This document shows positions 1 through 61,800 of a stretch of 64,000 nucleotides of DNA, piece by piece (position 1 is the stretch's first letter; each line of letters opens with the position of its first letter). The DNA is from Stylophora pistillata. Taxonomy: Eukaryota. The stretch covers positions 1,314,116-1,378,115 of the forward strand of contig NW_019217794.1 of the NCBI RefSeq assembly GCF_002571385.2, given 5' to 3'. A program made the position numbers.

Positions 1-3000
1 TGACATTGACCTTGACATTGACCTTGACATTGACCTTGACATTGACCTTGACATTGACCTTGACATTGACCTTGACATTGACCTTGACATTGACCTTGAC
101 ATTGACATTGACCAATCATTCTGACCAATCAGAATGTTCGGTTCGTTTCTTTCTTTGTACTGAATTAACTCTCTTCTGCACTGAATTAACTGAAAACTGC
201 ATACATCTTAACCAATCAGAACTGAGAATTTTTTCATGTATATTATTAGTGTTAAAACATCAGAGACAGTGAAAAAATCTCACAATTAAATACTTCTATA
301 CATGTTTATTTGAAGGGCCAAACTGGCAACTATCCACCTAACACTACCAGAACGTGGGATCTTGGCTTTCTTGCAGAGGACCGTTATTTTAGACTAGAAT
401 TTCGGAGGTTCAAACTTGGACAAGGGTAAGCTTTGTGTGCGTTTAATTTGTGTAAGTTTTTATTTTTATTGTTTTTTTAAAATTTTCTTTACTGTACTAT
501 TTTTTTGTTAATCTATATCAAATCAGAAGCCTTTTCCTAACTTTTAGTCTACCATTTTCATTGTATCTACACATATCACTGACGCCATGGGAAAACCCCA
601 TGTGCGGGGACTTGATGGCTCGATAGAGTGTTAGAGTGTAAGCGTGTGGGGTTCTGTTCAACTAAGCAATCCCCTTGCCCCCCTCTATTCTCGCCCCTTG
701 CATTGATGAGGGTGCCAGATACTAAGCAATCCCCTTTCCCCCCTCTATTCTCGCCCCTTGCATTGATGAGGGTGCCAGATACTTGCCCCAAAGGTTAACT
801 CTATTCCGTTGTATCAATTTTCAGAACGTTTCAAGGGAGACGATCGTTGATGATTCCAGCTAAAGCCTTTTTTCTTACCCTTTTCAGATAATTTGTAAAG
901 TGGTCTAACCTTTTTACGCTGATAGACAGCAAGTCTATCCTGGCTGTAACTCACGCTGAGATTTCCCTTTATATGTACTAAGCTTTCTTTGATTGTTTGG
1001 AAGAATGAACAGATGATATTTGAGGATGACCTAGCTTGCTTACAAACTTTTCTCTCTTCTAAGAAATGATACCCACTCGCCATTAATGACGATGCTTTGT
1101 TTTGTTTTACTCCCCTTTAAAATGATTGTAAGACAGGTATTGACGGATACGATAAATAGTGATTTGCAAAAGTAAAGGGTTCATTGATGTAAAGTAAAAC
1201 TTGAATGGGGAGGAGATGGAAATAGCGGGTGGGGTGGGGGGGATTGAAATCGATCCTACTTGAGTCTTTGAGCCATTGACATTACCACAAAATTCTTGTG
1301 TGTGATGAATAATTACTTTTAATCACCATTTATCCTATTGAAGGCTTAAAATTGAAATAAACTGAGGGCATTGCCGACGACAGCTTTAACTTAATTTTAA
1401 CAGTATTGGTAGCCAAATCCAAATTAAGTTTCCAAAACCTAGAATGACTTACATAATAATAACAAGATAATGAATACTATAATGTTACCTTGAGAATATC
1501 AAAATGCATACTTTGAAACACCTCTTAGCTTATTTGTCTTCTATTTCTTCGGCTGTGCCCTTTACTGGTTATTTCTTCCACAAGGGTAAGTTGTTTATTG
1601 AAGAGATGTCTTTGAAGTCAAGAGTACGACACATACAGAAAAATCAAGCTGAATTACAGATTACATCTGCGACAGTATGCGAGAAATGACCTCTCAGAAA
1701 TAGTCGATGTCTTCTAAACTAGTGTGGATCGCCCTTGTCAATCTTGGGAACACACGAAGTTGTCGTTTGTTTACATATTGATTTCTCATCAACAACGATA
1801 TGAATTCCCCTTTTATTAATCATTTAAGTTTCAAGTCAATGTACGTTGCATCTCTAATATGCCTTTTTTTCCACTTTACTCCATTCAAGAGGGGGCGTTT
1901 CTAATTTCCCATTGAAAACTTTGACAATAAATCCCGCACGTGCGTTGTGTCAACCTCATGCAAAAAATGGATCAATTTTTTCTCATTATTTCAACGTACA
2001 CTTTTCAAACTGCAACAATGTAAAAATCTTGACTGTCATCAACATTAATAATTAAAGAGAAATGCGTCTCATAAAAGCGTGCGGAAGAACAACCGGACTT
2101 TAGGGCAGAGTAATAAACATCGAATGAAATGTTATCGCGTGATTTTTCAAAAGCGTTCATTCTATAGGCATCAGTCATCACTTTCCTTTTCCTGGGCCTG
2201 AAACGAAAACGTATTGGCCAAGTTTACGTTTGTGGAGCAAATAATGTGATGTTACACTTTCTATGATTGGTGAAAGCCAATCCTTTAACAAAATGATTGG
2301 CTCCTTTAAAATATATATACATAATATATAAAGATGAGTTTCTGGGGTCGGACTAGTTCAAAAACATTTAATTAAATGTTTTTGAACTAGTCCGACTCCA
2401 GAAACTCACCTTTATAAAATATTAAATAAATAATGGACTTATATAGCGTCATATCCGACTGCTATGTGGCGCTTTATAATACTGAGTTAAAAAGATAATG
2501 ACTACAATTGATTAAAGACAAAATAATGAAACGAAAGCTTTTTTAAAAAGGTAAGTCTTTAGAAATTTCTTAAAAGCTGCCAAAGAAAAACCAGGCTGTC
2601 TCATATGAATGGGCAGAGCATTCCACAACCGTGGGGCAGCCCCCGCGAAAGCTCTGTTACCATAAGACTTTTGAATAGACCTTGGGACAACCAGAAGAAA
2701 CTGTTTGGATGACCTGAGACTACGACTGGGGATATACGGTGTTAGCAAATCACTAAGATAAGAAGAGGCTAAATTATTCAGAGATTTAAAAACCAACAAC
2801 AAGATCTTAAAAGCAATGCGATGCTCTACTGGTAACCAATGGAGCTCCGAAAGTAATGATGAAGTATGACCAAATTTAGGACAACGCTTAACAAGACGAG
2901 CGGCACAGTTCTGTACAGACTGTGGCCTCTGAGTCTGGAATTTTTGTAGCCCGTATAAAAGGGCATCTTTATTCACCGCTCTGGTCTTACCATCGAGCAC

Positions 3001-58800: not shown

Positions 58801-61800
58801 TATGGACAACATATTTTTCATCTCCACTGCGTCAACAGAAAAACAGTCATTAGAACTAAAAATACGAATGGTTGATTATTGTTTCATGAAACACCAGCCA
58901 TCGGTCAACGGGCGTAAATTCATACTGTTGGTTGTGATAAAAAAGTTTAAAAAAGTAGTAATTACAATAATAAAAGTGTACACAAACGCACAAAAAGCTT
59001 ACCCTTGTCCAAGTTCGAATGACTCCTTAATTTCAAATTTTAGTCTAAGATAACGGTCTTCTGCGAGAGAACCAAGATCCCACGTTCTGGTAGTACTAGG
59101 TGGATAGCTGCCAGGGAAACCAGGCGATCTAAGTTTTACAGTTTTGCCTGTAAATAAACATATATAGAAGTATTAAATTGTAAGATTTTTCCATTGTCCA
59201 TGATGTTTTAACACAAATGCTAATCAGTGGCTCCAAAACTGAAAAGGTGACATCATCAATCTATGCAAATGACTCAAGGTAAATGAGTTAACTGACCCCC
59301 CGGTGACGATGTTTCCATTGATTATTCTAGAAATAGCGCTTTCAAGGACATTTTGAAAGCATAAGAAAGTCAAATACATTATATAATCTCACCATCTGCG
59401 CAAATTTGTATGTTGCCGTGTAGATCCTCGTGTTATCTAGGTATACTTTAAAGTAAATTTTCAGAAAACAGACACTTTTTTTGTGAAGTTACTCTCTCTA
59501 TTTGGTTTCTCTTATGGAAATTAATATCTCATTTCTAAAAGTAAAGTAAACCGCGCGTTTGCCTGCTGATATACGTCCTGCGTTACGTAAAAGCTTAACT
59601 TAGAAATTTTAATCACCTGGGTTAATTGTGATCATTGTCGGTGCGGGTGTCGTAGGTGCTGCGGTGGTCGTCGGTGCTTCGGTGGTCGTTGGTGCCTCGG
59701 TGGTCGTTGGTGCCTCGGTGGTCGTTGGTGCCTCTGTGGTGGTTGGTGCCTCTGTGGTGGTTGGTTCCTCGGTAGTGGTCGGCCCTTCGGTGACTGTCGT
59801 CGGCGCAACTTCGGCATTGCATAAGGTGGTATTGCAACATTCCAACGAACAAGACGTTAGGTTTCCTCCAGCGGATTCGTTACGCGAATTGCATAAGGAG
59901 TCGCTACTGCAAAGTAAATCCGGTAAACAGAACTTAAGAAGGCCTGGCTGATTGGCATTATCAACTGTCCGTATAGTCATACAGGCAAATTCTGCTTTAC
60001 AGTCGTCCACCTTTTCATTGGAACAATCATCTACGCAAGTGGTGCACATTAATTCGGACTCAATTTCTGTTATGCATATCAACAGCACCTAGGGAGAAGA
60101 AATTAATTATCTGTTAGTCCCCTAGTTAAGGATATACTGTTTATATTCTGGATCTCCTTTGTGTGACTGAAAATGGTGCCTAACTAAATAGCAGAAGGAA
60201 AAGAAATTTATATGCCCTTAAAAGAAAATCCTAACAATTTCTTCATATTGTACTGTACTCTAGTGCGACCTAGCTTCCTTGGAACACGCCCGAACTTAAA
60301 TAGATTTCCTTAATGAACAACACAAGGTGCACTGGCAGCGCACATGTCGGTGTGAGATGTAAGTCATTTGCATAAATCGCTTGAAGAAAATGTTTAGGCT
60401 GTACGTTTAGCGTCCTCGGCAATTTGATAGTTCGGTACAGGTAGTTTGGCAGTTTTGGATTTTTTCTTTGAGCATGTTTCAGATTTCGTCGAGATCGTAG
60501 TGCTGATTTGTGTAAATTTTTCAAATGATGATGTTAGAAAGTCAAAACATCTTCACACTTCAGGTTGGCTTTCAACTAAAGTGTCGCCGCACAAAACATC
60601 TGCGGGGCGTGCACCAACTACAAAAGCTTGCAAGATATGTAAGGCATTTCCATGAGAATAATCGGCTATACGATAAAGAACCTGGGGCAGTTGGAAATAT
60701 GATAGAGGAGTGAATAAAGGACCCATAAAGGTTTCTTTTATACGAGCATCTTGCATTTTAATCTGTTCAGACTGTCAGATGGTAACTCTTTATCCAGGTA
60801 ATGGACAAACGCATCAAGATAGAGTTTTGATCTGTTGTCTAGATTTATCTTTACGTTAAGATGATGAAAACAGATATTCCTAACACTACAACATATACAC
60901 CTTAGGTTCACAAAGGTGAATTGGCTTTTAGGGAAATGTTGCAAAACTAATATCAATTGATTATATGAAGTTGTACATTCCTGAGCAAGCGTATCGTCAC
61001 ATTTGATACAGCTGGAAAAAAAATTTTGGCAAAATTGCTAGATGTGTTTAGCTTGACATCACTAGTGCTCATTAATGTTTCAGAAATGTCAGAGTAATGC
61101 ATCCGAAATTATTACCGAAGAGCTGCAACTTGGTTTGGGTATGTTTTCGTTTCCCCACTTTTAGAATTCTTGGCATGTTAGTTGGTTTATTTGCAGAAAG
61201 TATCTGCTATGAACTTGAGAGAAATCAGTCGCTGCAAGGATTTTCAATTAGCTAACAACTATACAAGACCCACCGTTAGATAAAGCAGAGAATCTTTCAT
61301 CTTTAACAGCTTGAATCAATCGACTGCTATAGTTCCCTTTCAAGAATGATAGTAGAAGTGTACGTCTCTTTACATACTTTGAGTCAAATATTGGTTATGA
61401 CGGTCACATTATATAGCTAATAGCGAGTGCCTTCTTAGAGACACCGCGTCTGAATACCCGTATTGACTCTGTCTGCAGTAATATAGCTTTGATTGTCACT
61501 TCCGTTTATTGATATCAGGAGAAAAAACAAAACGATCACGTTTCGTTTTGTGTACTTAACAATTGTCATGTTTTATTTCAGTCGTTTATAACAAGCAACT
61601 GCACTGAGCTTTTTAGACAAGGCCAAGGAGACAGGCAAAAGAATGCAGTAATATATCTGAAGCACTTTGATAAAGAAGTTATATTGTGCTACGGATTCTT
61701 CATTTTTGTATTTCATTCCTGATATTTTGAACTGAAAAGAAATTATTCTAGTTCTCGGCAAAACAGCCCAACAAACAAACCGCTTTCTTGTTTGCTATTC

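What the first reader, a model, noticed from the sequence alone, without database searches (positions are those of the whole stretch)
250..59210. Inverted duplication of more than 20 kb that preserves two intact gene pairs
Seen: 250-20820 mirrors 33765-59210 around a ~13-kb spacer. Non-coding sequence is visibly diverged (roughly 10% by eye) and each arm has its own TE insertions. All identified exons and splice sites of A/A' and B/B' stay intact, and indels are in frame. Inference: a real, old duplication with both copies under purifying selection, not a misplaced haplotype.
[Added by the scan's program, not by the reader: the finding's places include an assembly gap (unread letters, written N; its length is only estimated) at 3390 to 3864, 17634 to 18322, 28805 to 29547, 49878 to 49998, 51816 to 51907, 55524 to 55638. 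Whether the letters on both sides are continuous or in frame is not known: test that first.]
Basis: partly seen in the sequence, partly recalled or inferred. Interest (0 to 1): 0.7.

Follow-up and report, generated by a model that had tools for sequence, protein, structure and literature searches.

The report
Diverged inverted duplication of acidic CUB genes
Two roughly 20-kb mirror-image copies of a block of secreted, aspartate-rich CUB-domain genes sit in an invertebrate (probably stony-coral) scaffold; it is a real but fairly ordinary old gene-cluster duplication, and one of the four genes said to be intact carries a stop codon.

Summary
The mirror-image match is real. Window 245-20820 aligns colinearly, in reverse complement, with 59218-33764 around a 12,943-bp spacer. 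Aligned non-coding sites are 88.7% identical. Each arm has private SINE/LINE-like insertions, one with a clean 7-bp target-site duplication.

The genes are not human. B/B' encode a uPAR/Ly6 domain, a Thr-rich linker and two CUB domains, each interrupted by a poly-Asp loop. A/A' encode two such CUB domains.

All 36 splice dinucleotides of the 9 exon pairs are kept, and all 4 exonic indels are multiples of three. dN/dS is 0.35 for A/A' and 0.17 for B/B', both significantly below 1.

- B' has an in-frame TAT>TAA nonsense codon at 40564-40562.
- A third duplicated gene has lost its acidic exon in arm 1.
- First and last exons were not found.
- Two near-identical tracts suggest local gene conversion.

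The arms are joined only across N gaps, so the inverted orientation rests on scaffolding. A haplotype artefact is unlikely. Verdict: partly confirmed; a new member of a known kind.

The parts
245..20820 (.). Arm 1 of the duplication (20,576 bp). Its outer end lies 244 bp from the window edge, so its true limit is unknown.
   Evidence: Colinear inverted BLASTN chain
33764..59218 (.). Arm 2 (25,455 bp), the reverse complement of arm 1. It is longer because of about 7.8 kb of private segments.
20821..33763 (.). Spacer (12,943 bp). It holds GPCR-like ORFs, N runs at 26293 and 28805-29547, and paralogue C.
4058..7042 (-). Gene A, identified part. Exons: CUB1n 7042-6877, CUB1c 5996-5671, CUB2n 5338-5182, CUB2c 4389-4058. 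These make two CUB domains, each with a poly-Asp loop.
50801..54414 (+). Gene A'. Exons: 50801-50966, 52720-53048, 53382-53538, 54095-54414. All four are open, with in-frame 3-bp and 12-bp indels relative to A.
14027..18733 (+). Gene B, identified part. Exons: Ly6 + Thr-rich 14027-14437, CUB1n 14796-14952, CUB1c 15848-16131, CUB2n 16774-16930, CUB2c 18333-18733.
37510..41383 (-). Gene B'. Exons: 41383-40994, 40629-40473, 39639-39356, 38467-38311, 37910-37510. Splice sites are kept, and 9-bp and 12-bp in-frame indels lie in the first exon.
40562..40564 (-). In-frame TAA stop in the CUB1n exon of B', at a conserved Tyr codon (TAT in B at 14861-14863). It is the only non-synonymous difference in that exon.
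58285..60088 (-). Gene D: Ly6 + Thr-rich exon 60088-59612, a CUBn-like exon near 59150-58990, and an acidic CUBc exon 58734-58285. The inner part lies within arm 2.
245..486 (+). D' relic in arm 1. The CUBn-like exon is still open but carries a 27-bp deletion and other indels. The acidic exon is absent: 41 bp in arm 1 against 823 bp in arm 2.
30025..33134 (-). Gene C, an older paralogue in the spacer (Ly6 + Thr-rich + 2 CUB). It is 49-51% identical to B/B' in the Ly6 exon.
8669..8973 (+). Arm-1-private SINE with a tRNA-like head (8829-8901) and a 7-bp target-site duplication. The site is empty in arm 2.
38498..38736 (-). Arm-2-private SINE with a tRNA-like head (38602-38677).
2324..3052 (-). 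Arm-1-private 729-bp insertion with a 172-aa ORF that I recall as a LINE-type tail. It has no Pfam match.
5554..6409 (.). High-identity tract 1 (94.9% over 865 columns, 530 of them non-exonic). It includes a 240-bp perfect run in the intron upstream of A_CUB1c.
16755..18708 (.). High-identity tract 2 (96.3% over 866 columns, 333 of them non-exonic). It has a 240-column perfect run spanning the gap flanks and the 5' half of B_CUB2c.
54581..56576 (+). A 943-bp direct duplicate (96.5%) whose two copies abut N run 55524-55638 exactly. It is present once in arm 1 and is probably an assembly artefact.

Best explanation
This is a genuine, diverged segmental duplication inside a local cluster of genes for secreted, aspartate-rich CUB-domain proteins. 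The genome is a non-human invertebrate, most likely a stony coral (inferred). A block of at least 20 kb carrying three genes (D, A, B) was copied. In the scaffold the two copies lie head to head, as an inverted pair around a 13-kb spacer that holds an older paralogue (C) and GPCR-like genes. Shown: since the copying, the arms accumulated about 0.12 substitutions per non-coding site and independent SINE/LINE-type insertions. The coding exons of A/A' and B/B' changed mostly at synonymous sites, kept every splice site and took only in-frame indels. Shown: preservation is not complete. B' carries one nonsense codon, and D' has lost its acidic exon. Inferred: two tracts of near-identity that run from acidic-loop exons into introns are best read as ectopic gene conversion between the arms. 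Inferred from family knowledge and the literature: the proteins are extracellular calcium-binding or mineral-binding matrix proteins. The poly-Asp loops, inserted around the fourth Cys of each CUB domain, would provide the acidic surface.
For: Colinear inverted chain of 17,583 columns. Non-coding identity is 88.7%, against 94.7% and 97.0% for exons. 36 of 36 splice dinucleotides are kept. 4 of 4 exonic indels are in frame. dN/dS is 0.35 (A, 319 codons, 27 aa differences) and 0.17 (B, 457 codons, 15 aa differences), with Fisher p of 3.5e-4 and 7e-8. Private tRNA-like SINEs occur in each arm, one with a clean 7-bp target-site duplication and an intact empty site. A/A' and B/B' exon peptides are 94-98% identical, against 50-65% among other CUBn paralogues and 38-51% among other Ly6 exons, so the arm duplication is the youngest event in an older local family. 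Domains: Pfam CUB on 9 of 9 CUBn exon peptides at 43.9-51.9 bits (cut-off 21.4), and UPAR_LY6 at 25.7 bits (cut-off 24.8). Gene conversion: chi2 144.8, p 1e-17, with perfect runs of 242 and 240 columns, where a 240-bp run is expected about 6e-9 times at 11.3% divergence. Literature, passages and section 6 of PMC8691061: three tandemly located acidic skeletal-matrix genes with CUB domains in Porites australiensis. Literature, passages of PMC4890752: Acropora skeletal 'CUB domain-containing proteins' and 'Threonine-rich protein' share a Thr-rich sequence.
Against: B' has an in-frame TAA, so at least one of the four copies may be a pseudogene, a null allele or a base-call error. D' is degraded. 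Signal-peptide and terminal exons were not found, so 'intact gene' is unproven for all four. The arms are linked only through N runs, and the scaffold shows likely assembly errors at two other N runs, so the inverted layout is unverified. dS in the two acidic-loop exons is very low (0.023 and 0.033), and A_CUB1c has dN/dS 1.84, so selection estimates are uneven and are confounded by conversion. No sequence comparison with any coral protein or genome was possible, so the organism and the skeletal-matrix role are inferred only.
Confidence: 0.75

Rival explanations
1. The duplication is real, but in the genome it is a direct (tandem) duplication. The inverted layout would be a scaffolding error, with one block of contigs flipped at the N run 28805-29547.
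For: Arm 1 and arm 2 never share a gap-free stretch, since N runs at 26293 and 28805-29547 lie between them. SINE copies sit on both sides of that gap, at 28306-28572 and 29548-29727. Two other N runs are flanked by suspicious duplicates. If 1-28804 were flipped, B-A would lie in the same orientation as C, B'-A' and D, which is the usual pattern of tandem family growth.
Against: Nothing in the sequence contradicts the scaffold as given. Paired-read scaffolders usually get orientation right. Inverted segmental duplications are common in animal genomes (general knowledge).
Confidence: 0.15
2. The two arms are haplotypes of a single locus, or one is a misplaced haplotig, wrongly placed side by side in inverted orientation.
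For: The assembly has many N runs and two gap-flanking duplicates of 96.5-97% identity that look like unmerged alleles. The assembler therefore did struggle with heterozygosity.
Against: The arms differ by 11.3% substitutions over 14,428 non-coding sites, plus 761 gap columns and more than 10 kb of private segments. That is about 3-4 times the divergence of the allele-like duplicates in the same window. Independent SINE insertions have intact empty sites. An 823-bp exon-bearing segment is present in one arm only.
Confidence: 0.05
3. Exon similarity is maintained mainly by repeated gene conversion between the arms rather than by purifying selection on two functional copies. One or both members of a pair could be decaying.
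For: Two tracts of 95-96% identity, with 240-bp perfect runs, extend into introns around A_CUB1c and B_CUB2c. Those two exons have the lowest dS, 0.033 and 0.023. B' has a nonsense codon.
Against: Conversion lowers dN and dS alike, yet the differences that did accumulate are biased to synonymous sites (dN/dS 0.17-0.35; p 7e-8 and 3.5e-4). Exons outside the tracts, such as B_CUB1n, B_CUB2n and A_CUB1n, have dS of 0.16-0.20 with dN/dS of 0-0.08. No frameshift occurs in any of the 18 exons.
Confidence: 0.1

Closest known systems
Tandemly located acidic skeletal organic matrix genes with CUB domains in Porites australiensis (paus_s0019.g24-g26; PMC8691061, section 6 and passages read)
   Same: Both are clusters of neighbouring genes encoding acidic (Asp-rich) proteins with CUB domains. 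The paper proposes a calcium-binding or matrix role.
   Different: No sequence comparison was possible: protein searches and supplements were closed, and no eukaryotic genome collection was on hand. The paper speaks of three tandem genes. Here I see up to seven family members (D', A, B, C, B', A', D), arranged as an inverted pair of blocks. Whether this window is that locus is unknown.
Acropora skeletal 'CUB domain-containing protein 1/2' and 'Threonine-rich protein' (PMC4890752 and PMC3748352, passages read)
   Same: Both have a conserved N-terminal region, then a threonine-rich stretch, then CUB. That order matches the B, C and D exon order found here (Ly6-like, Thr-rich, CUB).
   Different: Those proteins are described with a single CUB domain and are not listed among the acidic proteins. 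Here there are two CUB domains, each with a poly-Asp loop. Homology was not tested.
Large genomic palindromes with arm-to-arm gene conversion, such as those on primate sex chromosomes (recalled, no call)
   Same: Both have inverted arms of tens of kb around a spacer, carrying paired genes. Patches of near-identity here suggest some conversion.
   Different: Those arms are kept above 99.9% identical (recalled). Here non-coding identity is 88.7%, so any conversion is local and rare.
Canonical CUB domains and uPAR/Ly6 three-finger domains (Pfam PF00431, PF00021)
   Same: The N-halves match CUB strongly. The Ly6 exon has the Cys framework and the CCxxxCN end.
   Different: Each CUB is split by a phase-2 intron in the third Cys codon. 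Each also carries an Asp-rich insertion of 20-60 residues around the fourth Cys, so the C-halves fall below Pfam thresholds.

Membership tests
CUB domain (Pfam PF00431) | Profile match to the N-terminal half of the domain above the gathering score | tested here: met
   9 of 9 CUBn exon peptides scored 43.9-51.9 bits (cut-off 21.4) over profile positions 1-49/50 of 110. The B' CUB1n exon was not sent because of its stop codon.
CUB domain (Pfam PF00431) | Profile match to the C-terminal half of the domain | tested here: inconclusive
   Whole CUBc exon peptides: 0 of 5 matched PF00431 at E <= 0.1. Last 40 residues: 3 of 8 gave sub-threshold PF00431 matches to positions 80-110 (13.4-16.3 bits, cut-off 21.4), and 2 of 8 gave weak CUB_M02D8_5_3rd matches.
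CUB domain (Pfam PF00431) | Four conserved cysteines (two disulfides) | tested here: met
   In A, A', B, B' and C, Cys1 and Cys2 are in the CUBn exon and a Cys lies inside the acidic loop. Cys3 is inferred from the split codon, TG at the donor plus C or T after the acceptor. The exons were not joined. Gene D lacks these cysteines.
CUB domain (Pfam PF00431) | Whole-domain beta-sandwich fold | not tested
   Testing it would need the two exon halves joined.
uPAR/Ly6 (LU, three-finger) domain (Pfam PF00021) | Profile match at or above the gathering score | tested here: met
   The B Ly6 exon scored 25.7 bits (cut-off 24.8; E 1.6e-5) and also matched Activin_recp at 23.1 bits (cut-off 20.9). The D exon gave only a weak BAMBI match (E 0.047). 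In the PDB sequence search, LYPD6 scored E 0.062.
uPAR/Ly6 (LU, three-finger) domain (Pfam PF00021) | Conserved Cys framework ending in CCxxxCN | tested here: met
   The cysteines, including C81, C82 and C87, and N88 are invariant in 4 of 4 aligned Ly6 exons.
uPAR/Ly6 (LU, three-finger) domain (Pfam PF00021) | Three-finger fold | tested here: inconclusive
   The model has mean pLDDT 59.5 and pTM 0.46. Foldseek against PDB found 0 matches at E <= 0.001. The weak top hits are mostly three-finger proteins (GPIHBP1, PSCA, LYPD6, uPAR, CD59, receptor ectodomains).
Coral acidic CUB skeletal matrix proteins (Porites/Acropora) | Acidic composition plus CUB domain, with genes clustered | tested here: met
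   Poly-Asp loops occur in 8 of 8 CUBc exons of A, A', B and B'. Seven family members lie within 60 kb.
Coral acidic CUB skeletal matrix proteins (Porites/Acropora) | Sequence homology to the published proteins, and presence in skeleton | not testable with these tools
The Atlas gave only generic CUB and LYPD6-like leads (scores 0.86 and 0.77) and no taxon.
Genomic palindrome homogenised by gene conversion | Arms near-identical along their length | tested here: not met
   Non-coding identity is 88.7%. Only two tracts of about 0.9 kb each reach 95-96%.
Haplotig or allelic assembly artefact | Divergence in the allelic range, same insertions in both copies, half read depth | tested here: not met
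   Divergence is 11.3%, against 3.0-3.5% for the allele-like gap-flanking duplicates. Insertions are private to each arm. Read depth is not testable here.

The most novel reading that the evidence does not exclude
The inverted layout is real, and the two arms act as a slow palindrome. Occasional arm-to-arm gene conversion is centred on the exons that encode the poly-Asp loops, so that the acidic loops of paired biomineralisation genes evolve in concert while the rest of the arms drift. Meanwhile one member (B') is being lost, or segregates as a null allele. This would be a small-scale model of how a calcifying animal tunes the dosage and sequence of acidic matrix proteins.
Probability: 0.2. 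Interest if true: 0.45.

Novelty: new member of a known kind. Interest (0 to 1): 0.3.

Why it matters
Acidic, calcium-binding matrix proteins are central candidates for how corals and other calcifiers control crystal growth, and their families grow by local duplication. This locus gives a clean, datable example. Two gene pairs were kept under purifying selection after a block duplication of at least 20 kb. It also shows one fresh nonsense mutation, one decayed third pair, and signs of local gene conversion over the acidic-loop exons. For genome annotators it is also a caution. The scaffold has gap-flanking artefactual duplicates, and the inverted orientation, the gene count and the 'intactness' all depend on assembly quality.

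Tried and rejected
- Signal-peptide exons: two scans for ATG + hydrophobic stretch + phase-1 donor conserved in both arms found no convincing candidate.
- Terminal exons: three-frame reading downstream of B and B' found nothing recognisable. Every CUB2c exon ends in a phase-1 GT donor, so either further exons exist or translation runs a few codons into the 'intron'. This stays unresolved.
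- A Ly6 or Thr-rich exon for gene A: tblastn at E <= 10 over 7043-14013 and 41400-50800 gave a best E of 0.53, and a Thr-rich scan found only B, B' and D. A therefore seems to lack it.
- Pfam on ORFs of private insertions and other unexplained ORFs: 8 of 10 peptides had no family at E <= 0.1. One was GPCR-like and one had only low-complexity noise. The TE class therefore rests on tRNA-like heads, copy number, one target-site duplication and my recollection of LINE-tail motifs.
- ESM Atlas (2 of 2 calls) gave generic CUB and LYPD6-like leads and no taxon.
- The structure of the Ly6 exon was of low confidence, and the fold search found nothing significant.
- A literature search for 'inverted duplication' + coral + biomineralization returned 0 papers.
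- A human origin was considered and rejected. The gene content is Ly6 + Thr-rich + acidic CUB and intronless GPCR-like ORFs, and the repeats are tRNA-derived SINEs.
- Not done: whole-protein or whole-CUB-domain searches and folds, because exons were searched one by one and never joined.
- Not possible: read depth, long reads, synteny, orthologue searches and any check of organism identity. The genome collection holds only bacteria and archaea and was not used. The supplementary tables of PMC8691061, which may list the Porites acidic CUB proteins, could not be opened.

Full report
**What the window is.** It is 64,000 bases at about 37% G+C, with eight N runs: 3390-3864, 17634-18322, 26293, 28805-29547, 37227, 49878-49998, 51816-51907 and 55524-55638. 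I do not take it for human. Its genes are intron-split uPAR/Ly6 + threonine-rich + CUB genes with poly-aspartate loops, its spacer holds intronless GPCR-like ORFs, and its repeats are tRNA-derived SINEs. Spliced models were searched exon by exon. Exons were never joined, so no whole-protein or whole-CUB-domain search or fold was made.

**The observation.** Self-BLASTN gave 125 HSP rows, of which 39 were inverted.
- The inverted HSPs chain colinearly from 245-486<->59218-58941 to 20699-20820<->33887-33764.
- The chain has 20 blocks and 16,242 columns at 85.4% BLAST identity, gaps counted.
- It has 21 blocks and 17,583 columns once 4719-6169<->54013-52542 is added.
- Most blocks have E = 0.0, so chance is not an issue.
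- Arm 1 is 245-20820, arm 2 is 33764-59218, and the spacer is 12,943 bp.
- Arm 1 starts 244 bp from the window edge, behind a microsatellite at 1 to about 110. The outer limit of the duplication is therefore unknown.

**Gaps, tested first.** No N run lies inside an identified exon, so no reading frame crosses a gap.
- The flanks of 3390-3864 map to 56081 and 56053 in arm 2, 27 bp apart.
- The flanks of 17634-18322 map to 38007 and 37918, 88 bp apart.
- Order and orientation therefore hold across both arm-1 gaps. The stated gap lengths of 475 and 689 far exceed the partner intervals. Either arm 1 has private insertions there or the lengths are overestimates.
- Gap 17634-18322 is intronic and ends 10 nt before exon B_CUB2c. 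The acceptor AG is read, but the tract upstream is not.
- The arm-2 gaps lie in or beside arm-2-private segments.
- N 55524-55638 is flanked by two copies of a 943-column direct duplicate (96.5%) that abut it exactly. N 26293 is flanked the same way by a 396-column duplicate (97.0%).
- N 49878-49998 is flanked by an 86-bp perfect inverted repeat.
- I read the two direct duplicates as probable unmerged alleles.
- Arm 1 and arm 2 are connected only through N 26293 and N 28805-29547. The inverted orientation is therefore only as good as the scaffolding.

**Divergence and insertions.** Counting substitutions only, aligned sites have the following identities.

| Class | Aligned sites | Identity |
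|---|---|---|
| All non-coding (JC 0.123; 761 gap columns) | 14,428 | 88.7% |
| Outer flank | 2,256 | 84.2% |
| A introns | 1,723 | 91.0% |
| A-B intergenic | 6,499 | 90.2% |
| B introns | 2,072 | 88.3% |
| Inner flank | 1,878 | 87.2% |
| A exons | 969 | 94.7% |
| B exons | 1,389 | 97.0% |

Private segments of 100 bp or more amount to about 3 kb in arm 1 and about 7.8 kb in arm 2.
- Rfam finds tRNA-like heads at 8829-8901 (arm 1 only) and 38602-38677 (arm 2 only). ARAGORN calls neither a tRNA gene.
- The arm-1 element at 8669-8973 has a 7-bp target-site duplication, and arm 2 keeps the intact empty site.
- Copies of a repeat of about 270 bp lie in private segments of both arms.
- Pfam did not name any of the insertion ORFs.

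**The genes.** A tblastn search with the window's own exon peptides maps a local family.
- Gene B (+ strand) and gene B' (- strand) each have five identified exons: a Ly6 + Thr-rich exon, then CUB1n, CUB1c, CUB2n and CUB2c.
- Gene A (- strand) and gene A' (+ strand) have the four CUB exons. No Ly6 exon was detected for them.
- Pfam supports the domains. UPAR_LY6 scores 25.7 bits against a cut-off of 24.8. CUB scores 43.9-51.9 bits on 9 of 9 CUBn exon peptides.
- The CUBc exons fall below threshold: 0 of 5 whole exons matched, and 3 of 8 C-terminal 40-mers matched weakly.
- The reason is that each CUBc exon carries an Asp-rich insertion around the fourth cysteine.
- Every CUB is split by a phase-2 intron inside the third Cys codon. 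Every module begins and ends in phase 1.
- A model of the Ly6 exon was of low confidence (pLDDT 59.5). Its PDB neighbours, none significant, were mostly three-finger proteins.

**Other family members.**
- Paralogue C lies in the spacer at 33134-30025 on the minus strand.
- Paralogue D lies at the outer end of arm 2, at 60088-58285 on the minus strand.
- Arm 1 keeps only a relic of D's CUBn-like exon at 245-486. D's acidic exon is missing there: 41 bp in arm 1 against 823 bp in arm 2.
- The duplicated block therefore held three genes, and the third pair is not preserved.
- A/A' and B/B' exon peptides are 94-98% identical. All other CUBn pairs are 50-65% identical, and other Ly6 pairs 38-51%. 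The arm duplication is thus the youngest event in an older cluster.

**Are the pairs intact and under selection?**
- All 36 splice dinucleotides of the 9 exon pairs are AG or GT.
- The four exonic indels (9, 12, 3 and 12 bp) are in frame.
- Nei-Gojobori counts, summed over separately analysed exons, are as follows.

| Pair | dS | dN | dN/dS | Codons | Fisher p (dN/dS < 1) |
|---|---|---|---|---|---|
| A/A' | 0.114 | 0.040 | 0.35 | 319 | 3.5e-4 |
| B/B' | 0.083 | 0.014 | 0.17 | 457 | 7e-8 |

- However, B' has TAA at 40564-40562 where B has TAT. This is a Tyr that is conserved in the CUBn exons of A, A', B and C.
- It is the only non-synonymous change in an exon that also has five synonymous changes.
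- It may be a very recent pseudogenisation, a null allele or a base error. I cannot tell which.
- The first (signal-peptide) and last exons were not found for any copy.

**Heterogeneity.** Non-coding identity varies strongly along the arms (chi2 144.8, df 28, p 1e-17).
- One tract, 5554-6409, is 94.9% identical over 865 columns, 530 of them non-exonic.
- A second tract, 16755-18708, is 96.3% identical over 866 columns, 333 of them non-exonic.
- These tracts contain perfect runs of 242 and 240 columns. About 6e-9 runs of 240 are expected at 11.3% divergence.
- They cover the two acidic-loop exons with the lowest dS, A_CUB1c at 0.033 and B_CUB2c at 0.023.
- I infer local ectopic gene conversion. 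Both tracts lie next to N runs, which fits assemblers breaking where paralogues are too alike.
- Mis-extension of contig ends with reads from the other copy cannot be excluded.
- A third block, 10043-10319, is 97.5% identical and non-exonic. Its ORF differences are mostly non-synonymous. It remains unexplained.

**Comparison with what is known.**
- PMC8691061 (section 6 and passages read) reports three tandemly located acidic skeletal-matrix genes with CUB domains in Porites australiensis and suggests a role in calcium binding.
- PMC4890752 (passages read) describes Acropora skeletal CUB domain-containing proteins and a Threonine-rich protein that share a Thr-rich sequence.
- PMC3748352 (passages read) lists the corresponding Acropora millepora proteins.
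- These resemble what I see in domain order, acidity and clustering. Homology could not be tested, so the coral assignment and the matrix function are inferences.
- A search for 'inverted duplication' + coral + biomineralization returned 0 papers.

**Verdict.** The mirror-image duplication is real as sequence and is far too diverged to be two haplotypes. Purifying selection on A/A' and B/B' is supported. 'Two intact gene pairs' is overstated, and the inverted orientation is unverified. This is a new member of a known kind: a segmental duplication within a tandem gene family. Its interest is modest.

Noticed in passing
window 25897-26686: A 396-column direct duplicate (97.0%) whose copies abut the single N at 26293. 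It splits a rhodopsin-type GPCR-like ORF into two overlapping ORFs, 25659-26357 and 26206-26790 on the minus strand (Pfam 7tm_1/Srsx, weak). It is probably an unmerged-allele artefact.
   Followed up: partly
window 54581-56576: A 943-column direct duplicate (96.5%) that abuts N 55524-55638 on both sides and is single-copy in arm 1. It is a likely assembly artefact that inflates arm 2 by about 1 kb.
   Followed up: partly
window 49686-50084: An 86-bp perfect inverted repeat (49686-49771 against 50084-49999) that abuts N 49878-49998, inside an arm-2-private 1,494-bp segment. It is either a fold-back assembly artefact or the terminal repeats of an element.
   Followed up: no
window 10043-10319 and 46622-46346: A non-exonic block with 97.5% identity between the arms (7 differences in 277 columns). 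The ORF over it has mostly non-synonymous differences and no Pfam match. It could be a regulatory element, an RNA or a conversion tract.
   Followed up: partly
window 58285-60088 (- strand): Gene D has a Ly6-like exon with a (TTTEAP)n-type Thr-rich repeat. Its CUB lacks the usual cysteines, with Gly at the split codon. It also has a run of about 17 Asp residues.
   Followed up: partly
window 30025-33134 (- strand): Paralogue C: its first CUB has no acidic loop at all, while its second has a very long loop rich in Asp and Arg. This shows that the loops are insertions into an otherwise ordinary CUB.
   Followed up: partly
window 23045-23737 (- strand): A 231-aa open frame in the spacer with hydrophobic, GPCR-like character but no Pfam match at E <= 0.1.
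   Followed up: no
window 1-110: The window opens with a short-unit microsatellite directly outside arm 1. It may mark, or mask, the outer edge of the duplication.
   Followed up: no
window 53388-53393 (A' CUB2n): A' has Cys-Ala-Gly where the 9 other CUBn exons of A, A', B, B' and C have Cys-Gly-Gly. This is a change at an otherwise invariant glycine.
   Followed up: no
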